Assembly: GCA_025450975.1 (NCBI GenBank)
Contig: JANWLI010000055.1
Span: 1 to 35,210, forward strand
Origin: Candidatus Kapaibacterium sp.
GTDB taxonomy: Bacteria; Bacteroidota; Ignavibacteria; Palsa-1295
Reading direction: 5' to 3'
DNA: 35,210 nucleotides
The position numbers and the translations under genes are program-made. Positions within the stretch are counted from its first letter, which is position 1, and each line of letters opens with the position of its first letter. This document shows, piece by piece, positions 474 through 14,775 of the stretch. Under the pieces are notes generated by a model that worked only from the letters and a program-made list of their open reading frames with translations, was not told the DNA's origin and searched no databases.

Positions 474-1151
474 ATGAAGCACTTATCTATCGCTCGCATT
501 CGCTGGGCAACGCTGCTTGTCCTGGCATTCTCGTTCGTGACCTTCGACTCGTATGCTGCGCTTAACATGTATCTGAAGCTCAAAAGCCTTTCCGGCGGCA
601 AGACCTATACCTGCCAGTTGGATAATAATGGCAAGTTCTCATTTGAGAACGTCGAGCCCGGCACGTACGATCTCGTCTTTGTTCTCGATGGGAGCAGAAG
701 CCAGGATGACGGCACCATTCAATCGATCGAGATCAGCAGCTTTTCCTGGGGCGCTTCCAATACTGCAGGAAAGCAGGGAAAGTCGACACCGGTAACGCGA
801 TCGAATATTTCGAATAACCGGACGGGCTCCAACGATGGCGGTGATCCCAGCCCATCAGGAAAGCAAGGAAAGTCAACACCGGTAACACGCTCGAATATTT
901 CGAATAACCGATCGGCGACTGTCGACGCGCAGGGGCCATCCGTTACCTGCAACGGCAAAACTGTCGCCACGGGAGATCTCGATGGCGATGGAATAGCCGA
1001 CGAACTCTCTTCATCGGTGATCTGGTCGCCGAAGAGCAACATTCGTTCAACGTCTCCGGATGTCATTCTTCACGAGATCGTGGTGACGAGTGCCACCACA
1101 GCCGAAGGCAAACTCAAGGCGAGCTGGAATCTCAAAGAGAACGTTAAGTAA
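474..1151 (+). CDS. Exported Hcp-like (T6SS tube fold) hypothetical protein with an internal tandem duplication
   Basis: 225-aa ATG ORF. Residues 1-29 (MKHLSIARIRWATLLVLAFSFVTFDSYA) look like a Sec signal peptide. The mature part starts NMYLKLKSLSGGK, contains IEISSFSWGASN and DVILHEIVVTSATT, and ends KASWNLKENVK. These blocks follow the order of Hcp-family hallmarks. It also has a DNNGKFSFENVEPGTYDLVF hairpin-like insertion and a duplicated GKQGKSTPVTRSNISNNR segment. A strong terminator follows. Confidence 0.6.
   Translation: MKHLSIARIRWATLLVLAFSFVTFDSYAALNMYLKLKSLSGGKTYTCQLDNNGKFSFENVEPGTYDLVFVLDGSRSQDDGTIQSIEISSFSWGASNTAGKQGKSTPVTRSNISNNRTGSNDGGDPSPSGKQGKSTPVTRSNISNNRSATVDAQGPSVTCNGKTVATGDLDGDGIADELSSSVIWSPKSNIRSTSPDVILHEIVVTSATTAEGKLKASWNLKENVK
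766..910 (+). repeat. Two copies of a 55-nt coding repeat with a 90-nt period
   Basis: 766-820 (caggaaagcagggaaagtcgacaccggtaacgcgatcgaatatttcgaataaccg) and 856-910 differ at 4 positions. They encode the duplicated GKQGKSTPVTRSNISNNR peptide. Confidence 0.85.
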
Positions 1152-2393: not shown

Positions 2394-4109
2394 TCAGCCA
2401 TGATGTTCCTTGTGCTCTTCCAACTCGTGCATTAACTCAATGAACTCCGGCATCTCACGGATCGGATCAAGATCAGGATCGACCTTGAAAATTTCGATGT
2501 GGCGGAAGCCGCTTCGGACGCAACGCACGAGCGTCGCCATCCCGCGCTGAGGCTGGTGAGAGAGCAAGTAGGTACATGCAAGGTTGTAGAGCGACGCAGC
2601 GTCGAGCGATTCGATCGCCGAAAGTTTATCAGCCTCGGCAATCGCTTCCGCTTCACGACCTGCCATGGAGTAGATATTTGCCAGGTTTACCATTTCATGG
2701 TAGTGATCGGGATTGAAACGGAGATGGCGTTGAAAGACGGGTATGGCTTTGTCGGCAGCAATTCGTAGTCTTTCGATGATCTCTGGCGAGGTGCCGAGTT
2801 CTTTAATATAGGTAAGATAGTTGAAATGACCTTGTGTGTCATTCTCCCGAAGTCGCACATACTCTTCGCGCGCGTTTACTGCATCCTCGGGTCGTTGGAG
2901 TGCTTGTAAGGCAAAGGCAAGTACGTCATAGCCAACACTGAACGTCGGATCGGTCGCGATCGAACGCTCGGCAAATCGTAGCGCACCTTCATAATCGTCC
3001 CGGGATAGATAGATTCTGCTCATTGCACAAAGATATTGTGGGGTCGGTCCCTCAAGCTCATGTACTTTTTCAGCGGCAGTTTCCGCACGATCGAGCAACG
3101 AAGTACTCTCCCTGTAATAACGATAGAGCACACGATAGGTGAGGGATAAGTCGGCATAAGCATTTGCAAACGTTGGATCGAGTCGCACCGCCTCCTCATA
3201 GAGACTAACCGCGCGTTCATAATCAGGTTTCGTATGCCGACTGTAGTATGCGTCGGCTTTCATCCAAAGCTCATATGCTTCGGCATTTTCTGTGCCACGC
3301 TCGCGGACCTTTTTCTTTTCCGTCGCACTAAGATGCACTTTCAACCCATCGACGATCTTCTGTGTTACTGTTTCCTGCAGATCGAAAATATCGTCCATGA
3401 CACCTTTGTACGAATCCTGCCAGAGATGTTCGTACGTCTCGATATCGATAAGTGAAGCAGCGATTTTTATTCGCTCGCCAAATTTTGTCACCGTTCCCTC
3501 GACAACGTACCGGGTATCATACGTCTGGGCGATTTCGCGGGTACTTTGTTTCACACCTCGTAACTCCATTGAACTCTTGTGATCGAGCACACGGAGCGAT
3601 TTCAGCGTACTAAGCGCGCCGATCAGCTCACCGGTAAGCCCATCGGCAAACCATTCGTTATCTTTTTGCGGAGAAAGGTCGCCGAACGGCAGGATGATGA
3701 GAGACTTACGAAGGTCGACTGACGACTTGCGGGCTACACCGCGCTGATGTGAGCGGATGATGGCATCATAGTCGGTGATCGCCACGTGCTGTATCCCGGC
3801 GATCTGATATTCAAATGAAGAGGGAAGAACGACTGGGGCAATCCGCACCGGCAGAATACGCTTCCCGCGTTCCGAAGCAAGGGAAAGTTCTTTCAACACA
3901 TTTGCGGACTCCACCGACGATGGAGATAAGAGTAAGAGAAACGTCGAGCATCCTCTGATCCCCTCAACGATCTCCGTCGCCCATTGCTCGGCGCCATCGA
4001 TGCCATGGCGATCGAGCCAAACGTTGAAATCATCGGCCTCGAGACGCTCGGCAAGCGCAAGGGCCTGTTCGGAATCCCGGCGCGAGTAGGAGATGAAGAT
4101 ATCAGCCAT
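2394..4109 (-). CDS. TIR domain protein with a central alpha/beta module and a C-terminal TPR-like array
   Basis: 571 aa. The N-terminus MADIFISYSRRD...NVWLD...FLLLLSPSSVESANVLKELSLA is a canonical bacterial TIR signature, including the conserved Glu (E74). The middle part (LIILPFGDLSPQKDNEWFADGLTGELIGALS...RYVVEGTV...IKIAASLID) is the module that usually precedes TPRs in cyclase/BTAD/CadC-type proteins. The last ~300 aa are TPR-like helical repeats. No transmembrane segment seen. Confidence 0.8.
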   Translation of the reverse strand: MADIFISYSRRDSEQALALAERLEADDFNVWLDRHGIDGAEQWATEIVEGIRGCSTFLLLLSPSSVESANVLKELSLASERGKRILPVRIAPVVLPSSFEYQIAGIQHVAITDYDAIIRSHQRGVARKSSVDLRKSLIILPFGDLSPQKDNEWFADGLTGELIGALSTLKSLRVLDHKSSMELRGVKQSTREIAQTYDTRYVVEGTVTKFGERIKIAASLIDIETYEHLWQDSYKGVMDDIFDLQETVTQKIVDGLKVHLSATEKKKVRERGTENAEAYELWMKADAYYSRHTKPDYERAVSLYEEAVRLDPTFANAYADLSLTYRVLYRYYRESTSLLDRAETAAEKVHELEGPTPQYLCAMSRIYLSRDDYEGALRFAERSIATDPTFSVGYDVLAFALQALQRPEDAVNAREEYVRLRENDTQGHFNYLTYIKELGTSPEIIERLRIAADKAIPVFQRHLRFNPDHYHEMVNLANIYSMAGREAEAIAEADKLSAIESLDAASLYNLACTYLLSHQPQRGMATLVRCVRSGFRHIEIFKVDPDLDPIREMPEFIELMHELEEHKEHHG

Positions 4110-8787: not shown

Positions 8788-10947
8788 TTAGCGGCCGACC
8801 GAGGGAGAGTAACTAAACCTGATATCCTCGCAATACATTTCAATCTTGATGCGGCGCTGCCCATCTGCGCCTGCGGGAAGCTGCGTGAGCTTACGAGGAC
8901 AGATCTTTGAAAGATCAAGCCTAAAGAGCTCTGCCGTGCCATCGTTAGCGAGGTAGATGAGCGATCCGGACTTTTCGAGCTGCGGCGTACAGCCTCCTGC
9001 GAGCCTGAAACTTTCAAAGTAATCGAGCCAGGGCTGCGCATCGGTTTGGGATAAAGTGAACGTCAGATTCGGATGATCGATCTTGCCGGGTTCCTTGAAA
9101 TAGTCCCTGCTATTATCGGCTGTTTGCTGTGTCGTCTTCTGCTTGAAGACGATCGACTCGACTTTGCTGACTTTCGCAGTGGGCAGACCGGCGATCTCGA
9201 GCTTGAAGTTCGCAGGCGACCATGTCTTCTGTGCAGTTGCCGGCGGTTCGATCTTTTTATTTGGCTCCGGCCTGACTTCGTGCATCGCTGCCGGCTGAAC
9301 CTTGATCGTCATGTATGCCGGATCCTTCGAGGCAGCATCGAGTGCGGGCATTTGGATCTCGGAAATGAGTGCAGCCTGGAATTCGCGGCGTGCACGCTCG
9401 TGAAAATTGAAGTCTTCCATGATGATCGCGCCACTCTTGCGCAAGTACTCTTTATTCCACGAGCTCTCGATCCAGTCATAGATCGCCGGCGTCATGCTCA
9501 GGCCCAATTGCATGGCGAAATCGCCTGCAACGCTTGGCGCTGTAGCCGCGCCTTGAAAACTCTGTAGATATCCTGCAGTTTTTCCGTCGATCTCTATGAG
9601 AAATTTGCCGGATACATAGCCGCGCCGGTTCGCATCGGAACTCCAGGTCGTTTCGGATTGCGACGCGCCTTCATCCCATTGGCGGCCGCCAATCCCACTT
9701 CCAGCGCTATCTTCGGATGACGGGCCCATAGCGATCGTGATCTCGTGATGGCCGAACTGTCCGTTCTTTTCGGCAACAAGTTTCAGAAAGTATGATTTAT
9801 TCGGTTTAGCTGTCCCCGGCGAAAGCCAGAGATTCGACGGGATCGGCTCTTTCTTGAGCGAGATGTAGCGTGGTGTGCCGACTTCGCGCAGATACCAATT
9901 GTAGTTGAACGGGCCACCGGTTGCCGAGCGTGCGCGGCCGGTGAATTCGTGCGGGGCGTCCGGATCGAGTGGCATCGTCTGCGGCGCAGTGATACGGACT
10001 TCGATCGGTGTCTTGACGACGATCGGTTCGCCGAGGCGATTGATATCGGGAATACCGTCGCCATCGATGTCGATATTGCCTTCGCCACAATCATCGGAAA
10101 CCGTAAACGAGAACGGTGTTGCCCAGCCATCCTGATAGCTTACCAACGGCCGTCCTTGAAAATCAAGTGCGCGGACGCTCCAGGCATAGCGCTTCCCTAC
10201 TTCGGGATAAAAATATTCGACGGGCCAGATCAGCTCCGTGAGTCCCATCAGTTCGCGCTCAAATACCGGGCGTGCACTGCGAAGCGCCGTCGATGGATTC
10301 TGTCCGGCGAGAACTTCGAAGACTGAGAGTCGGTAACGAACGGGCTCCATCGGAGCCGGAACCACGGGAGTCCAGCGGAACATCGGGCGCGGATTGCCGG
10401 AGTTCATCTCGATGACATTGTTCTGCCCAAGTTTGCACAGGACTGCCTGATCGGCAGGCAGGATCAGATATGGAGTCGTATAGGAAACGATCGTAACGCA
10501 CACCGGTGGCAAGAGTGCCAGTTGCTCGAGTGTCGTAGCATCAATGATCTTTATCGTGATGCAGATCGTGCCGTCGGGAATGCGCCCCGATCGCTTCGTG
10601 CTTTCGTCGAGGTTATCTTCGAAGTGCATGGCAGACATCGGTACGATATTCTCACCGTAGAAGGTGCGTATGCCAGGGTTAATCGTTTGCGGCTGCAACT
10701 TGTCGGCATTCGTGTAAGCGACAAGTTTGTTGTTATGCGAGATCTCGGCTAATATCTTCACATCGGTCGGAACCGATGGTGCATTCGTGACGATCAGCGT
10801 TACCGTATTAACACGCGATGACCAGTCCGAGAGATACGGCGACGGGTTCGGCGAAAAGATCAGCTGAGCAGACCATTGCGAGTAAGCAAACTGCGCTGCA
10901 AACGTGCAGACAAGGAAAATAGACTGTAGAAGGCGCTTTACGATCAT
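8788..10947 (-). CDS. Secreted 719-aa protein with two C-terminal tandem contractile-tail tube (Pvc1/Afp1/T4 gp19-like) domains
   Basis: Signal peptide MIVKRLLQSIFLVCTFAAQFAYSQ. The N-terminal ~440 aa are unassigned and contain an IDIDGDGIPD calcium-site-like motif. Residues ~443-556 read KFLIEIDGKTAGYLQSFQG...IYDWIESS...RKSGAIIMEDFNFHERARREFQAALISEIQMPALDAASKDPAYMTIKVQ. Residues ~578-715 read NFKLEIAGLPTAKVSKVESIVFKQK...EPGKIDHPNLTFTLSQTDAQPWLDYFESF...EKSGSLIYLANDGTAELFRLDLSKICPRKLT...IKIEMYCEDIRFSY. Both follow the tail-tube pattern block by block. Confidence 0.7.
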   Translation of the reverse strand: MIVKRLLQSIFLVCTFAAQFAYSQWSAQLIFSPNPSPYLSDWSSRVNTVTLIVTNAPSVPTDVKILAEISHNNKLVAYTNADKLQPQTINPGIRTFYGENIVPMSAMHFEDNLDESTKRSGRIPDGTICITIKIIDATTLEQLALLPPVCVTIVSYTTPYLILPADQAVLCKLGQNNVIEMNSGNPRPMFRWTPVVPAPMEPVRYRLSVFEVLAGQNPSTALRSARPVFERELMGLTELIWPVEYFYPEVGKRYAWSVRALDFQGRPLVSYQDGWATPFSFTVSDDCGEGNIDIDGDGIPDINRLGEPIVVKTPIEVRITAPQTMPLDPDAPHEFTGRARSATGGPFNYNWYLREVGTPRYISLKKEPIPSNLWLSPGTAKPNKSYFLKLVAEKNGQFGHHEITIAMGPSSEDSAGSGIGGRQWDEGASQSETTWSSDANRRGYVSGKFLIEIDGKTAGYLQSFQGAATAPSVAGDFAMQLGLSMTPAIYDWIESSWNKEYLRKSGAIIMEDFNFHERARREFQAALISEIQMPALDAASKDPAYMTIKVQPAAMHEVRPEPNKKIEPPATAQKTWSPANFKLEIAGLPTAKVSKVESIVFKQKTTQQTADNSRDYFKEPGKIDHPNLTFTLSQTDAQPWLDYFESFRLAGGCTPQLEKSGSLIYLANDGTAELFRLDLSKICPRKLTQLPAGADGQRRIKIEMYCEDIRFSYSPSVGR

Positions 10948-11110: not shown

Positions 11111-12505
11111 ATGTATTTACGGTTCGTCGGATTCATCTTACTCTTCATTTCTGCTATTCCTCTCTTTGCTCAGGAGGATAGCCTGACTGTCATTGGCACG
11201 AAGGACGTTATTACCGGCCTCGATACTCCCTGGGAGATCCTTTGGGGACCGGATAATCATATATGGATGACAGAGCGCTATGGGCGTATCAGCCGTGTCA
11301 ACCCGGAAACAGGAGAACTTACGCCGCTCATCACCATGCCGGAAGTCTATGAGACGGCCGAGGCCGGACTTATGGGAATGACACTGCATCCGCATTTTCC
11401 CGATCCGCCTTATCTCTACACTGCCTATACCGGCAAGGTTGACGATTCAACTTACGGTGTTTACATTGTTCGCTTCACTTATGCGCGGGATACGCTGGTC
11501 GACAAGCAGATCCTGATCGATCCACGACGAATTATCGGTGGCACGATTCATGACGGCTGCCGCCTTCTGATCGATAGCAACGACATGACGATGTACGTCA
11601 CGACCGGCGATGGCGAGGATTATTGGTATCCGCAGACCGATTCCATTTATAATGGCAAGGTGCTCCGCATGAACCTCGATGGCTCGGTGCCGGACGACAA
11701 TCCCATTCCCGGCAGTCATGTATGGTCTAAAGGCCATCGGAATGCGCAAGGTCTTGCCTACGGACCGCATCACTTGATGTATACTACGATGCACGGCACC
11801 TTTGAGGAAGATGAGATCAACATCATTGTCAAAGACGGAAATTACGGTTGGCCGAATATCAACGGTAAAGCTGATTTTGGTGATGAAGTTGCGTTCGCTA
11901 GTGACTCATCGGCCATTGACCCGATCTATACCTGGACTCCGACGATCGCACCGGGCGGATGTCTGTACTACGACCACGAGGAATTCCCTCAACTCCGCAA
12001 TTCCCTGCTGATCGCCATCCTCAAAGGCGATGGCGACGGTAACAGCTATATGATAGCTGCGCATCTCGACAGTGCGGGGACTGCCGTGACCGATACCGTG
12101 CGCTACTTCTACGGAGAATACGGCAGGTTTCGGGATGTCGCTATCGCTCCCGATGGAAGAGTCTTCATCTCGACAAGCAATAGAGATTCAAAGGGATTTC
12201 CAAGACAGGACGACGATCGTATTCTCATGCTCTACGCTGCGCCCCAGGTATCGGTCGCAGTTGATGAGCAGTCCACGGTTTCGATCTCACCAAATCCAAT
12301 GACTGGTGCTGCTTCGTTCGTGACGCTGCCGCACGAATTTGTCGGCGCTTCGTATGATATCGTCGATGCCTTGGGGCGTATCGTTCGGACCGGGACCCTG
12401 GAGTTCACCCAATCGCGTATCGAGCGTGGCACGCTTGCCGAAGGCGTTTATATCCTCCGCGTGCAGGGCGATGTTCCCTGCTCTACGCGGTTCGTAGTTA
12501 ACTGA
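11111..12505 (+). CDS. PQQ-dependent sugar (glucose/sorbosone) dehydrogenase family protein with a T9SS C-terminal sorting domain
   Basis: GLDTPWEILWGPDNHIWMTER.GRI..V, GLMGMTLHP.F, SKGHRNAQGLAYGP and EDEINIIVKDGNYGWP are typical of soluble GSDH beta-propellers. The tail ISPNPMTGAASFVTL...GVYILRVQG...RFVVN is T9SS-sorting-domain-like. Track ORF starts at 11006. The ATG at 11111 gives the leader MYLRFVGFILLFISAIPLFAQ. Its stop overlaps the convergent stop of the next gene by 8 nt. Confidence 0.8.
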   Translation: MYLRFVGFILLFISAIPLFAQEDSLTVIGTKDVITGLDTPWEILWGPDNHIWMTERYGRISRVNPETGELTPLITMPEVYETAEAGLMGMTLHPHFPDPPYLYTAYTGKVDDSTYGVYIVRFTYARDTLVDKQILIDPRRIIGGTIHDGCRLLIDSNDMTMYVTTGDGEDYWYPQTDSIYNGKVLRMNLDGSVPDDNPIPGSHVWSKGHRNAQGLAYGPHHLMYTTMHGTFEEDEINIIVKDGNYGWPNINGKADFGDEVAFASDSSAIDPIYTWTPTIAPGGCLYYDHEEFPQLRNSLLIAILKGDGDGNSYMIAAHLDSAGTAVTDTVRYFYGEYGRFRDVAIAPDGRVFISTSNRDSKGFPRQDDDRILMLYAAPQVSVAVDEQSTVSISPNPMTGAASFVTLPHEFVGASYDIVDALGRIVRTGTLEFTQSRIERGTLAEGVYILRVQGDVPCSTRFVVN

Positions 12506-14219
12506 GTTTCTTGAGGATCGCTTCGAACTCCGGGAGGTTGCGCAGTGGATCGAGGTCGGGATCGGTGCGAATCAACTTCAGGTTGCCAAAGCCCTTGTCG
12601 ACAGCAAGAGCGATCGCCTTAATTCCGTCGTCTAGTTTTTTATGCCGAATGAGCATACAGCCGACATTGTAAAGACTAAGTCCATCGCTGTGAGAAGAAG
12701 CTAAGAGTCTGTTGACGATATTCAGAGCTTTTTCTGTTTCGTGAAGGTCGAAGTAAAAGCTCGCAAGCCCTGCCAGGAGGAATTGATCGTCGGGCTGAAG
12801 TTTGCGTCTGTGCTCGAAGAGCGGCAAGGCGCGCTCGGCAACGTACGTTTGTCCTTGTGTGTCGCCGGTTTTCGAATACTGCACATACAGATTCCAGAAA
12901 CCGAAGATATTTTCCGGATTGACTTCCGTGCACTTCTGATACCACTCAATAGCTTGGATCGTCTTTCCTGCCTGGGAGTAAACAAACCCCATGCTCAAGT
13001 AACCCCGGATGATATTGGGTTCGAGCTCGATAATTTTTTGGGAGGCATCGATCGCTGCATCGAAATTGCCGCGGATCGTCTCGAGCGTTGCAAGGGCATG
13101 ATAGGCAACTGTGATCGTATCATTGATCGCAAGCGACCTATCGATCAGTGCTGCGACTTCGTCAAGCCACTCTTTGCGCTGTTCGTAAACACGATAGAGG
13201 ACGAGCAATGCCGACGCCTTGATCGCCATAGCAGCAGCAAAGCCGGGATCAATAGTCAGCGCTTCGTCGAGCAACTCAAGGGCATGCGTAATCGCTTGCT
13301 TTGTGCTCTGTTCGATGAAGCTTCCGGCACGCATATAAAATTCATAGGCTTCGGCGCTTTCGGTCAGACGCGCGGTTAGCTTCTCTTTATCTATCAGCGA
13401 GAGTGTGACTTTCAGCGCATCGATGGTCTTTCGTGCAACGGCTTCCTGGATGTCAAAGATATCATCCATGACGCCGCGATGCGCCTCATTCCAGATATAC
13501 TCGGTCGAGCGCGAGTCGTAGAGAGCGACAGTGATCTTGATCTGCTCGCCGTGCTTGCGAACTGCACCTTCGATGCAGTAGCGGACTTTCAGCGCTTGTG
13601 CAATTGCCTGCAGGCTTCCCTTGTAGCCTTTGTAGCCCATGGCAGTGCGGCGATCGGTGACGCGAAGCGACTGGATGCCGGAGAGTGCGTTGATCAGTTC
13701 GTCGGCAAGGCCGTCGGCGAACCACTCGTTGTCCTTGCCTGCTGAGAGATCTTCGAATGGGAGAACGGACAGCGAGACGCGTTCGTCTTTCGGTGCAGGT
13801 TGCTGAGCGGGTTGTGGCGCAACGGGCGTCGAGCCCGCGACGGCGCCGATTCGATCAAGGCCTCGAAGAATACCGTCGAAGTCGGCGTACTTGACTCGCT
13901 GCAGACCCGCCAGTTGGTAGCGAAGGTCGGCAGTGAGGTCGACGTGTTCGAGGTCGACGGGGATGATGGTCTTGCGCGACTCCGATGCGAGTGAGACTTC
14001 TTTGACAACATTATGCGATGCGACGGAGCTTTCGGAGAGCAGAAGGAGCACTACCTTGCACGTATCGATAGCGGTGACGATCTCGCGGGACCAGCTCGTG
14101 GCCGCTTCGATGCCTTGCGTATCGATCCAGATCGAACATCCGGATGCTCGCAAGCGCTCTGCTAAGGAGAGCGCTTGTTCTTTATCGCGGCGTGAATATG
14201 ATATGAAGACGTCTGACAC
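12498..14219 (-). CDS. TIR domain protein with a central alpha/beta module and a C-terminal TPR-like array (paralog of 2394..4109)
   Basis: 573 aa with a GTG start. (M)SDVFISYSRRDKEQALSLAERL...SIWID...VLLLLSESSVASHNVVKEVSLA is a TIR domain with E74 conserved. LSVLPFEDLSAGKDNEWFADGLADELINALS...RYCIEGAV...IKITVALYD is the central module, followed by TPR-like repeats. By manual count 49 of the first 80 residues are identical to the 2394..4109 protein. Confidence 0.8.
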   Translation of the reverse strand: MSDVFISYSRRDKEQALSLAERLRASGCSIWIDTQGIEAATSWSREIVTAIDTCKVVLLLLSESSVASHNVVKEVSLASESRKTIIPVDLEHVDLTADLRYQLAGLQRVKYADFDGILRGLDRIGAVAGSTPVAPQPAQQPAPKDERVSLSVLPFEDLSAGKDNEWFADGLADELINALSGIQSLRVTDRRTAMGYKGYKGSLQAIAQALKVRYCIEGAVRKHGEQIKITVALYDSRSTEYIWNEAHRGVMDDIFDIQEAVARKTIDALKVTLSLIDKEKLTARLTESAEAYEFYMRAGSFIEQSTKQAITHALELLDEALTIDPGFAAAMAIKASALLVLYRVYEQRKEWLDEVAALIDRSLAINDTITVAYHALATLETIRGNFDAAIDASQKIIELEPNIIRGYLSMGFVYSQAGKTIQAIEWYQKCTEVNPENIFGFWNLYVQYSKTGDTQGQTYVAERALPLFEHRRKLQPDDQFLLAGLASFYFDLHETEKALNIVNRLLASSHSDGLSLYNVGCMLIRHKKLDDGIKAIALAVDKGFGNLKLIRTDPDLDPLRNLPEFEAILKKLS

Positions 14220-14243
14220 ATAGCAAAGTTACGGCAGGCGGAC

Positions 14244-14296
14244 GGGCAGACGGGCAGACGGTCAGACGTTCAGAGGGGGCGGACGGTCAGGCGTTC
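14244..14296. repeat. Left arm of the GC-rich short-period array flanking the four-helix-bundle gene
   Basis: Octamer-like units gacgggca gacgggca gacggtca gacgttca, then gagggggc ggacggtcaggcgttc. Imperfectly complementary to 14724-14775. Confidence 0.8.
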
Positions 14297-14337
14297 GAAT
14301 ACGTATGTTTGTAATCATTCATTAATCATTATAACAC

Positions 14338-14700
14338 ATGTCGAACATTACTACCTACCGTGACCTACTTGTGTGGCAAGAGGCAATGAACCTCTGCGAA
14401 CTTGTATATGAATTGACACATCGGTTTCCCGATAGAGAATTATATGGTTTAACTTCTCAATTGCGTCGAGCATCGGTTTCCATCCCTTCCAATATTGCCG
14501 AAGGACACGGAAGACGAGGTTCAAAAGAGTTGTCGCATCATCTTTCGATTGCAAAAGGATCACTTTGCGAACTCGAGACACAAATACTCTTGTCCGTTCG
14601 ACTGCATTTTCTTTCAAAGGAAGATGGAGACAGATTCTGGACTAAAGTTCAGGACGTTGGAAGATTGCTGAATGCCTTTATCAGATCTTTGCTACCGTAA
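14338..14700 (+). CDS. Four-helix-bundle protein (23S rRNA intervening-sequence protein / Avd family)
   Basis: 120 aa. YRDLLVWQEAMNLCELVYELTHRFPDRELYGLTSQLRRASVSIPSNIAEGHGRRGSKELSHHLSIAKGSLCELETQILLS is the hallmark of this family (W.KA..L....Y.....FP..E.Y.L..Q.RRA..SI..NIAEG.....). Confidence 0.85.
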   Translation: MSNITTYRDLLVWQEAMNLCELVYELTHRFPDRELYGLTSQLRRASVSIPSNIAEGHGRRGSKELSHHLSIAKGSLCELETQILLSVRLHFLSKEDGDRFWTKVQDVGRLLNAFIRSLLP

Positions 14701-14723
14701 TCGCGCAGCATCCATTTAGACCT

Positions 14724-14775
14724 GAACGTCTGATCGCCTGCCCCCTGCACGTCTGTCCGTCCGACCGTCTGCCCC
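14724..14775. repeat. Right arm of the GC-rich short-period array flanking the four-helix-bundle gene
   Basis: gaacgtctgatcgcctgccccctgcacgtctgtccgtccgaccgtctgcccc. Its reverse complement aligns with the left arm. Exact complementary blocks include gggcagacggtc (14252-14263) with gaccgtctgccc (14763-14774), and agggggc (14274-14280) with gccccct (14740-14746). Confidence 0.8.

What the first reader, a model, noticed from the sequence alone, without database searches (positions are those of the whole stretch)
12498..14219. Second TIR / alpha-beta module / TPR paralog, with stop codon overlapping a convergent gene
It has the same three-part architecture as 2394-4109. By manual count 49 of the first 80 residues are identical, and E74 is conserved (codon 13998-14000). 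The central module is very similar (DNEWFADGL, GVMDDIFD(L/I)QE), whereas the TPR portions look much more diverged. That is the pattern expected if the repeat arrays recognise different ligands. This interpretation is inference. The gene uses a GTG start. Its stop overlaps the stop of the convergent PQQ-dehydrogenase gene by 8 nt (12498-12505) and no terminator lies between them.
Basis: partly seen in the sequence, partly recalled or inferred. Interest (0 to 1): 0.6.

Follow-up and report, generated by a model that had tools for sequence, protein, structure and literature searches.

The report
TIR enzyme with swappable TPR sensor
This is a real gene for a soluble protein that joins a probable NAD-cleaving TIR head to a CadC-type sensor body, one of at least seven old copies in this genome, and its TPR repeat array differs sharply between close relatives at the same chromosomal site, as a specificity-determining part would.

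Summary
ORF 12498-14219(-) encodes 573 aa: a TIR domain, a disordered linker, an alpha/beta module and a TPR solenoid. It is 38% identical to 2394-4109 (TIR 53%, module 54%, TPR 24%). The E74 codon, the GTG start and the 8-nt stop overlap are all as described.

It is not simply a second copy. This incomplete genome holds at least 7 copies, and related genomes hold 0-26, often in tandem arrays. The module plus TPR folds like the CadC periplasmic sensor. The same cassette also sits behind kinase, cyclase and DNA-binding heads.

The new result comes from three syntenic orthologs. TIR plus module are 92-97% identical, with synonymous divergence like the flanking genes and dN/dS about 0.05. The TPR array (about aa 265-540) is only 42-65% identical and has 2-5 times higher synonymous divergence. 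This points to a deeply diverged, exchangeable allele cassette. It is not drift, and dN/dS above 1 was not shown.

E74 is invariant, but the canonical WxxxE tryptophan is an invariant Asn, so NADase chemistry is unproven. A defence role is inference; ordinary signalling remains a serious rival.

The parts
12498..14219 (-). Complete gene, 573 aa plus stop, GTG start: TIR / CadC-like alpha-beta module / TPR protein (P0001)
   Evidence: AF2 model pLDDT 90.2
13851..14219 (-). TIR domain, aa 1-123 (Pfam TIR_2 E 7e-23). The BB loop, aa 33-42, has low confidence in the model.
13998..14000 (-). Codon of Glu74, the putative catalytic Glu in helix alpha-C. It is invariant in 68/68 family members and aligns with the WxxxE Glu of Cat1 and PdTIR.
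14010..14012 (-). Codon of Asn70, which occupies the position of the canonical WxxxE tryptophan. It is invariant in the family.
   Evidence: PMC10641520
13782..13850 (-). Disordered Pro/Gln/Ala-rich linker, aa 124-146. No transmembrane segment.
13410..13781 (-). Central alpha/beta module, aa 147-270 ('TolB-like'/COG5616 type; first subdomain of the CadC-type sensor). 21 invariant columns, including LPFxDLS and DNEWFADGL.
12600..13427 (-). Hyperdivergent TPR segment, about aa 265-540. It is 42-65% identical among syntenic orthologs whose N-halves are 92-97% identical. Differences at 4-fold synonymous sites are 0.54-0.82, against 0.26-0.39 in the N-half.
12501..12674 (-). C-terminal cap, aa 516-573 (NCBIfam TPR_END_plus E 5e-17). 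In the last 30 aa, identity among orthologs returns to about 70%.
12498..12505 (.). 8-nt overlap (TTAACTGA) of the two convergent stop regions. The overlap is conserved in orthologous loci as 8 or 4 nt.
11111..12505 (+). Convergent PQQ-type glucose/sorbosone dehydrogenase with a T9SS sorting tail. The likely true start is Met36 of the listed ORF, by comparison with the L011 ortholog.
14224..14231 (-). TAACTTTG box (matches the Bacteroidota -7 consensus TAnnTTTG, from my own knowledge) 4 nt before the GTG. The 14-nt string CGTAACTTTGCTAT is identical in window, L011 and L012, with one mismatch in L013. A similar box lies 5-9 nt before the ATG of three other paralogs.
   Evidence: promoter function is inferred
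14237..14775 (.). Upstream intergenic hairpin. Its arms are 8-nt tandem arrays (14237-14296 and 14722-14775). In this genome the loop carries an inserted 23S_rRNA_IVP/bAvd-like gene (14338-14700, +).

Best explanation
The gene encodes a soluble, cytoplasmic, single-chain sensor-effector. An N-terminal TIR domain retains the catalytic Glu (E74), within an NxxxE rather than WxxxE motif. A flexible linker ties it to a CadC/HilA-type regulatory body made of a highly conserved alpha/beta module and a fixed-length TPR solenoid of about 9 hairpins. The body is a widely used input cassette; elsewhere it carries Ser/Thr kinase, class III cyclase, wHTH or SARP heads. In this protein the TPR array is the specificity determinant. 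At this syntenic locus it exists as deeply diverged, exchangeable alleles between conserved flanks (the module on one side, the C-terminal cap and the dehydrogenase gene on the other). The protein is one of at least 7 ancient paralogs, each with a different TPR surface, in a family that has expanded and turns over rapidly in this Kapabacteria-type lineage.

Inferred mechanism: a ligand, most likely a protein or peptide, binds the TPR/module body and relieves autoinhibition or drives oligomerisation. TIR domains then come together to form composite active sites that cleave NAD+ or a related nucleotide, either depleting it or producing a signal.

Inferred role: a repertoire of intracellular recognition receptors involved in conflict with phages, mobile elements or competitors.

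Shown here: the architecture, fold, conservation pattern, copy-number dynamics and allelic hyperdivergence. Inferred: the enzymatic activity, the activation mode and the biological role.
For: Domains: TIR_2 E 7e-23, TPRs and TPR_END_plus. The AF2 model has pLDDT 90.2, with only the BB loop and linker disordered. Foldseek finds the CadC periplasmic domain 3LY7/8/9/A at target-normalised TM-score 0.65-0.68, rmsd 4.2-4.6 A over about 300 columns, E 4e-9. Profile hits to CadC and HilA cover aa 140-452. There is no TM segment. The same cassette sits behind kinase, cyclase, wHTH and SARP heads.

E74 and 17 other TIR columns are invariant, as are 21 module columns, against only 4 in the TPR half. E74 aligns with the WxxxE Glu of Cat1 and PdTIR.

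This genome has 7 copies, and they are its only TIR domains. Relatives hold 0-26 copies, in tandem arrays of 8-9, with two interrupted copies and presence/absence within a genus.

Orthologs share the convergent dehydrogenase neighbour. Their N-halves are 92-97% identical with dN/dS 0.03-0.06, while their TPRs are 42-65% identical. Against L013, differences at 4-fold sites are 0.37 in the N-half, 0.30-0.35 in flanking genes and 0.71 in the C-half (Fisher p 5e-9). All six ortholog pairs show the same excess. The genome closer in its flanks (L013, 88-91% aa) carries the more distant TPR (45%). The more distant genome (L011, 74-80% aa) carries the closer TPR (65%).
Against: The WxxxE tryptophan, which contacts the substrate in AbTir (PMC10641520), is an invariant Asn here, so canonical NADase or cyclase activity may be altered or lost. 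No copy lies in a recognisable defence island. Neighbours are housekeeping or secreted-protein genes. PADLOC matches only the TIR domain, and no phage carries a homolog. The same cassette is also multiplied in rhizobial cyclases, which are ordinary signalling proteins, so expansion alone does not indicate immunity. Average dN/dS in the TPR is below 1. The excess synonymous divergence rests on 50-80 four-fold sites per pair and on four sequences.
Confidence: 0.48

Rival explanations
1. This is an ordinary one-component signal transducer. The CadC-type cassette senses a cellular or environmental cue, such as a metabolite or stress signal. The TIR head is a regulated NAD-consuming or signal-producing output, equivalent to the kinase, cyclase and DNA-binding heads found on the same cassette. 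The paralogs are a sensory repertoire and not immune receptors.
For: The cassette is shared with kinase, cyclase, wHTH and SARP heads. Rhizobial megaplasmids carry up to 10 cyclase-cassette genes each. Neighbours are housekeeping genes with no defence genes among them. The paralogs in this genome are old: about 50% nt identity, with no shared exact stretch longer than 15 nt. TIR and module are under strong purifying selection. An earlier agent reached this view for another genome (e1-1208047, unchecked).
Against: Copy number runs from 0 to 26 between genomes of one family, and even within one genus, with interrupted copies. The TPR alleles at a syntenic locus are far older than their flanks, which is unusual for a sensor of a fixed physiological cue. 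No partner gene that could read a TIR-made signal lies nearby.
Confidence: 0.3
2. The protein is a non-enzymatic scaffold. The TIR acts only as a homotypic interaction domain and the TPR as an adaptor platform. The protein assembles complexes without cleaving nucleotides.
For: The substrate-contacting Trp of WxxxE is replaced by Asn in all 68 members (PMC10641520). TPRs are generic protein-interaction platforms.
Against: Glu74 and the surrounding S68-x-N70-V71-x-x-E74 motif are invariant across a family whose other parts diverge freely. That degree of conservation fits an active site better than an interface. Most bacterial TIRs examined so far are enzymes (established knowledge, not tested here).
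Confidence: 0.1
3. The TPR hyperdivergence is produced by a local mutagenic or conversion mechanism. Candidates are a diversity-generating retroelement, suggested by the adjacent bAvd-like gene, or patchwise gene conversion from other paralogs. Under this view it is not due to old alleles and recombination between genomes.
For: A 23S_rRNA_IVP/bAvd-like gene lies directly upstream. One reverse transcriptase with nearby 110-170-nt repeats exists on contig C7. Post-hoc AU tests indicate module exchange elsewhere in the family: P0118 was rejected reciprocally, at p 5.8e-8 and 0.0098.
Against: The IVP gene is absent from the orthologous loci, which show the same TPR divergence. There is no similarity between the C7 element and any TIR gene beyond chance. 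Differences are spread over about 830 nt and include third-codon positions, unlike adenine-targeted DGR changes. No exact matches above 15 nt occur between paralogs. The closest relatives of the P0007 TPR in 5.8 billion proteins are its own orthologs (64% and 47%), followed by 34% or less. The orthogroup is monophyletic for both halves, with support of 99 and 100.
Confidence: 0.07

Closest known systems
E. coli CadC (ToxR-like one-component receptor), periplasmic sensor domain, PDB 3LY7
   Same: Both have an alpha/beta subdomain followed by a helical TPR-like bundle. Foldseek target-normalised TM-score 0.65-0.68 over about 300 residues. The profile hit NF007540 maps aa 163-430 to positions 221-482. 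Output domain and sensor lie in one chain.
   Different: The output here is a TIR domain, not a wHTH DNA-binding domain. There is no transmembrane helix, so the sensor is cytoplasmic. The TPR region is about 120 aa longer. The profile score of 50 bits is far below the 400-bit family cut-off.
HilA/EilA-type soluble regulators and the kinase-, cyclase- and SARP-headed 'TolB-like + TPR' proteins (for example rhizobial adenylate/guanylate cyclases)
   Same: They share the same input cassette. Soluble versions exist, and multi-copy expansions occur within one replicon (up to 10 per megaplasmid).
   Different: The head domain differs. None of these carries a TIR. Identity is 25-45% in the cassette only. 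Their biological inputs are also mostly unknown.
Enzymatic bacterial TIR proteins (AbTir, PdTIR, Thoeris ThsB, CRISPR-associated Cat1, TIR-STING, SPARTA TIR-APAZ)
   Same: The TIR_2 fold is shared. The alpha-C Glu is conserved and aligns with the Glu of Cat1 and PdTIR. By analogy, activation would depend on assembly.
   Different: The WxxxE Trp is replaced by Asn70. There is no partner gene (ThsA, Ago, STING, CARF) and no known defence-system model covers the whole protein. The fusion to a CadC-type cassette is, as far as my searches show, undescribed.
TIR-NLR / STAND-type receptors (plant TNLs, bacterial Avs and bNACHT)
   Same: A TIR effector head sits on a repeat-array sensor. Both are lineage-specific repertoires with tandem arrays and a variable repeat domain.
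   Different: There is no NTPase (NB-ARC/NACHT) switch module. A conserved alpha/beta module occupies that position.

Membership tests
TIR domain (Pfam TIR_2 PF13676) | Match to the family HMM above the gathering score | tested here: met
   81.8 bits against a cut-off of 28, aa 4-115
NADase-competent TIR | Catalytic Glu in helix alpha-C | tested here: met
   E74 aligns with the Glu of Cat1 'WDEL' and PdTIR 'KE'. It is invariant in 68/68 members.
NADase-competent TIR | Trp of the WxxxE motif, four residues before the Glu, which contacts the substrate in AbTir | tested here: not met
   The position is Asn70, invariant in the family. No Trp occurs between aa 44 and 165 (PMC10641520).
NADase-competent TIR | Measured NAD+ cleavage that depends on the Glu | not testable with these tools
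   Needs biochemistry
CadC / ToxR-like receptors | Periplasmic-domain fold (alpha/beta subdomain plus helical bundle) | tested here: met
   3LY7/8/9/A, target-normalised TM-score 0.65-0.68, rmsd 4.2-4.6 A
CadC / ToxR-like receptors | N-terminal wHTH DNA-binding domain and a single TM helix | tested here: not met
   The N-terminus is a TIR domain. No hydrophobic segment reaches the TM threshold. NF007540 scores 50 bits against a cut-off of 400.
Thoeris (ThsB + ThsA) | TIR protein adjacent to a ThsA-type effector; ThsB model above cut-off | tested here: not met
   ThsB_TIR scores 17 bits, below the cut-off of 21.2. NF058526 scores 32.7 against 220. Neighbours are a dehydrogenase, a lipoprotein and an IVP protein.
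STAND / TIR-NLR receptors | Central NB-ARC/NACHT NTPase domain | tested here: not met
   No NTPase family appears in the Pfam or NCBIfam output. In the model the central region is a small alpha/beta module.
DGR target protein | Nearby reverse transcriptase and a template repeat matching the variable region | tested here: not met
   The only RT is on contig C7, with no similarity to any TIR gene. Orthologous loci lack the bAvd-like gene.

The most novel reading that the evidence does not exclude
Kapabacteria-type bacteria maintain an NTPase-less repertoire of intracellular TIR receptors. In each, the TPR array is an exchangeable specificity cassette kept as ancient, recombining alleles by diversifying or balancing selection. 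This would be a bacterial counterpart of polymorphic immune-receptor loci, built on a CadC-type sensor instead of an NLR, and using a variant (NxxxE) TIR chemistry.
Probability: 0.3. Interest if true: 0.8.

Novelty: new variant of a known kind. Interest (0 to 1): 0.58.

Why it matters
TIR domains are the shared enzymatic core of plant, animal and bacterial immunity. All well-studied bacterial examples are coupled to known partners such as ThsA, Ago, STING, CARF or NLR. This family couples a TIR to the input cassette of classical one-component regulators. It also shows, at a single syntenic locus, a conserved enzyme head next to a deeply diverged, exchangeable recognition array, which is the population-genetic pattern of a specificity locus.

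If the family is immune, it adds an NTPase-free receptor design and a natural set of allele swaps for mapping what TPR sensors recognise. If it is ordinary signalling, it would make regulated NAD cleavage a routine bacterial output domain. Either outcome is informative. The invariant Asn in place of the WxxxE Trp is a direct test of what that residue does.

Tried and rejected
- **Pairwise dN/dS between the two window paralogs.** I used syntenic orthologs instead.
- **DGR origin of the variation.** Rejected.
- **Recent gene conversion among paralogs in this genome.** No exact shared stretch longer than 15 nt.
- **A donor paralog for the divergent TPR allele.** None found among 5.8 billion proteins.
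- **Membrane or periplasmic topology.** No TM segment or signal peptide.
- **Membership of a known defence system.** PADLOC hits cover the TIR domain only.
- **Carriage on phages.** None found.
- **Conserved partner gene.** The immediate neighbours of all six loci are unrelated to one another.
- **Assembly chimera as the cause of the TPR island.** Unlikely. Both flanks match within one contig, and the same pattern appears in contigs from independent samples.
- **Literature.** Three searches found no description of the TIR + CadC/TolB-like + TPR architecture.
- **AU tests of module exchange.** The clades were named after the trees had been seen, so those p-values are optimistic.
Full report
**1. 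The observation**

The ORF 12498-14219 on the minus strand is open for 573 codons from a GTG. It aligns end to end with the ORF 2394-4109: 38% identity, E 6e-131, 19 gap positions. Glu74 is encoded by GAA at 13998-14000 and is Glu in both copies. The motifs KDNEWFADGL and GVMDDIFD(I/L)QE are present in both.

The gene's stop region shares 8 nt (TTAACTGA, 12498-12505) with the stop of a convergent gene. That gene is a PF07995 glucose/sorbosone (PQQ-type) dehydrogenase with a type IX secretion tail. No terminator-like hairpin lies near the junction.

The GTG is the first possible start in the open frame. It aligns exactly with the initiator of all other copies and homologs, which begin M-x-D-[IV]-F-I-S-Y, and three orthologs also use GTG. 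The source's own gene call (551 aa, from a TTG at codon 23) would delete the first beta-strand of the TIR domain and is very likely wrong.

**2. Anatomy**

- Pfam finds TIR_2 at aa 4-115 (E 7e-23) and TPR families from about aa 294 to 540. NCBIfam finds a TPR end-cap at 516-570.
- An AlphaFold2 model built on 68 family members is confident: pLDDT 90.2, pTM 0.72. Only the TIR BB loop (37-42) and the linker (130-142) are disordered.
- The model shows a TIR fold (1-123), a Pro/Gln/Ala linker, a small alpha/beta module (147-270) and about 18 helices of TPR solenoid.
- Foldseek against the PDB gives generic TPR proteins and, as the only compact match, the periplasmic sensor domain of E. coli CadC (3LY7/8/9/A; target-normalised TM-score 0.65-0.68, rmsd 4.2-4.6 A, about 300 columns, E 4e-9 to 3e-8).
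- Profile hits to CadC (aa 163-430, E 1.6e-13) and HilA/EilA (aa 140-452) agree with this but lie far below the family cut-offs.
- There is no hydrophobic segment or signal peptide, so the whole protein is cytoplasmic.

**3. The input cassette is shared**

A search with aa 146-300 alone, and another with an ortholog's TPR half, find the same module plus TPR behind several heads: Ser/Thr kinases, class III cyclases, wHTH (Trans_reg_C) and SARP domains. Some of these have a transmembrane helix between head and cassette and some do not. One TIR version has such a helix. Rhizobial megaplasmids carry up to 10 cyclase-cassette genes each, at 25-28% identity over aa 146-573. The body is therefore a general signal-input device, and TIR is one of several interchangeable outputs.

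**4. The TIR active site**

Glu74 aligns with the Glu of the alpha-C WxxxE motif in Cat1 and PdTIR and is invariant in 68/68 members. The tryptophan of that motif is highly conserved in NADase TIRs and contacts the substrate analogue in AbTir (PMC10641520). Here it is an invariant Asn (N70), giving the motif S68-x-N70-V71-x-x-E74. The catalytic-Glu criterion is met and the Trp criterion is not. An enzyme with altered pocket chemistry is the most likely reading, but activity is unproven.

**5. A family, not a pair**

- This genome is a MAG of 2.33 Mb at 67.5% completeness. It has six full-length copies and one copy cut by a contig end. These are its only TIR domains.
- Of 24 genomes in the same GTDB family, 22 carry the family, with 1-26 copies. 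Arrays of 8-9 genes in tandem occur, and two copies are interrupted by stops. Within one genus, counts include both 0 and 11.
- Outside that family it is rare: 4 of 16 genomes of the class.
- Public names are 'TIR domain-containing protein [Candidatus Kapabacteria]', 'adenylate cyclase' or 'TolB-like'.
- At 50% clustering, 614 representatives match the TIR plus module half at E 1e-30 or better.
- The copies within this genome are old. They share about 50% nt identity and no exact stretch longer than 15 nt. Their neighbours are unrelated housekeeping or secreted-protein genes: cyclophilin, methyltransferase, LexA, alcohol dehydrogenase, dehydrogenase and lipoprotein.
- PADLOC matches only the TIR domain. 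No phage record carries a homolog.

**6. Is divergence concentrated in the TPR?**

Between the two window paralogs, identity is TIR 53%, module 54%, TPR 24% and cap 33%. The mean over all pairs in the genome is 52/47/32/31. Across 68 members, 18 TIR columns and 21 module columns are invariant, against 4 in the TPR half. The proposed dN/dS test fails at this distance because synonymous sites are saturated.

**7. The decisive comparison: syntenic orthologs**

Four metagenomic proteins are 68-79% identical overall. DNA was available for three of them: L011, L012 and L013. For L011, L013 and the contig carrying P0005 the convergent dehydrogenase neighbour is conserved, with an 8- or 4-nt overlap. 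The L012 contig is too short to show this.

| Measure | N-half (TIR + module) | TPR / C-half | Flanking genes |
|---|---|---|---|
| Protein identity to P0001 | TIR 92-97%, module 91-95% | TPR 65, 66, 45, 45%; cap 47-67% | see below |
| NG86 | dS 0.64-0.68, dN/dS about 0.06 (0.03-0.04 within the domains) | dN 0.24-0.48, pS at saturation | not computed |
| 4-fold-site differences in identical-aa codons, vs L013 | 0.37 | 0.71 | 0.35 and 0.30 |

Sources.

The L013 flanking genes used are the upstream lipoprotein (91% aa) and a 466-aa gene (88% aa). The L013 C-half differs from its flanks at p 5e-9, while the N-half does not (p 0.25). All six ortholog pairs show the excess: 0.26-0.39 in the N-part against 0.54-0.82 in the TPR.

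The divergent island runs from about aa 265 to 540. In the last 30 residues identity returns to about 70%.

TPR similarity runs opposite to genome relatedness. L013 is the closer genome in its flanks but carries the more distant TPR (45%). L011 is more distant in its flanks (dehydrogenase 74% aa, 4-fold differences 0.52; next gene 80%) but carries the closer TPR (65%).

The orthogroup is monophyletic in trees of both halves, with support 99 and 100. The nearest relatives of the L013 TPR in 5.8 billion proteins are its own orthologs at 64% and 47%, then 34% or less. The island therefore does not come from a sampled paralog.

The simplest reading is that the TPR array at this locus exists as old allele classes that are exchanged between related genomes by recombination in the conserved flanks. 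Local hypermutation is the alternative. Average dN/dS in the TPR is roughly 0.15-0.25, so pervasive positive selection is not shown. Part of the contrast comes from very strong constraint on TIR and module.

Elsewhere in the family, post-hoc AU tests indicate at least one exchange of halves between members: P0118 is rejected reciprocally at p 5.8e-8 and 0.0098. Those clades were chosen after seeing the trees.

**8. Rejected mechanisms**

The upstream 23S_rRNA_IVP/bAvd-like gene raised the possibility of a diversity-generating retroelement. Three observations argue against it:

- That gene is absent from the orthologous loci, which show the same TPR divergence.
- The genome's only reverse transcriptase is on another contig and shares nothing with the TIR genes.
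- Differences span about 830 nt and include third-codon positions.

**9. Locus organisation**

Upstream of the GTG lies a 14-nt string, CGTAACTTTGCTAT. It is identical in the window, L011 and L012 and differs at one base in L013. It contains TAACTTTG, which matches the Bacteroidota -7 promoter consensus TAnnTTTG (my own knowledge, not tested). Three other paralogs have such a box 5-9 nt before their ATG. This suggests a near-leaderless, monocistronic transcript.

Further upstream is a hairpin whose arms are short tandem arrays. In the orthologs its loop is 23 nt. Here it holds the IVP gene. The stop overlap with the dehydrogenase is conserved but is ordinary gene packing.

**10. Verdict**

The gene is real and constrained. 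Its architecture (TIR on a soluble CadC-type cassette) is not covered by any defence or family model I could query, and I found no description of it in the literature.

The best-supported mechanism is a ligand-gated, assembly-activated TIR enzyme whose TPR array sets specificity. Whether the repertoire serves conflict or ordinary sensing is open. For conflict: copy-number volatility, tandem arrays and the allelic TPR island. For signalling: the shared cassette, similar expansions in rhizobial cyclases and the lack of defence neighbours.

Two earlier notes of this scan reached similar structural conclusions for other copies and disagreed on this point. I re-derived the fold and family results independently.

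Noticed in passing
window 14237-14775: The 23S_rRNA_IVP/bAvd-like gene (14338-14700, +) sits in the loop of a long hairpin. The arms are 8-nt tandem arrays (14237-14296 and 14722-14775; 34 nt, 85% complementary). Orthologous loci L011, L012 and L013 have the same kind of array-armed hairpin with only a 23-nt palindromic loop. The four-helix-bundle gene therefore looks like an insertion into a hairpin loop, much as IVS elements sit in 23S rRNA helices.
   Followed up: partly
window 14224-14231; G000 C118, C41, C129 upstream of their TIR genes: A TAnnTTTG box (Bacteroidota -7 type) lies 4-9 nt before the start codon in 4 of the 6 independently promoted copies. This implies near-leaderless mRNAs, and here one that starts with GTG.
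   Followed up: partly
window 8788-10947 (-): A 719-aa protein with a signal-peptide-like N-terminus has a C-terminal Phage_T4_gp19 tail-tube-like domain (E 3.8e-12). It is conserved next to the dehydrogenase in L011 (80% aa).
   Followed up: no
G000 C7:1424-3916: The genome's only reverse transcriptase (C7:3434-3916, PF00078 E 2.8e-21) has three 110-170-nt repeats nearby, 88-91% identical (about 1424-1549, 2322-2510 and 3083-3259). This looks like a genuine DGR with template and variable repeats. It is unrelated to the TIR genes.
   Followed up: partly
G000 C163:6628-7248 and window 474-1151: Two paralogous secreted Ig-like/CarboxypepD_reg proteins each lie within about 1.3 kb of a TIR paralog (C163 copy and 2394-4109). 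This may be the remnant of a segmental duplication.
   Followed up: no
proteins P0188, P0189, P0196, P0210 and others: Giant predicted proteins of 1000-2800 aa contain 3-7 copies of the central alpha/beta module. They could be real multi-module proteins or fused calls across tandem arrays.
   Followed up: no
protein P0177: This is a TIR version of the family with a transmembrane-like segment (aa 156-186) between the TIR and the cassette. That gives a ToxR/CadC-like topology with a TIR head.
   Followed up: no
G000 C41:7631-11049: A tandem pair of TIR copies, whose ORFs overlap by 8 nt, lies directly next to a divergently oriented LexA gene.
   Followed up: no
window 12498-14219, source annotation (P0003): The source's gene call starts at a TTG 22 codons downstream of the true GTG start. 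This truncates the TIR domain.
   Followed up: yes
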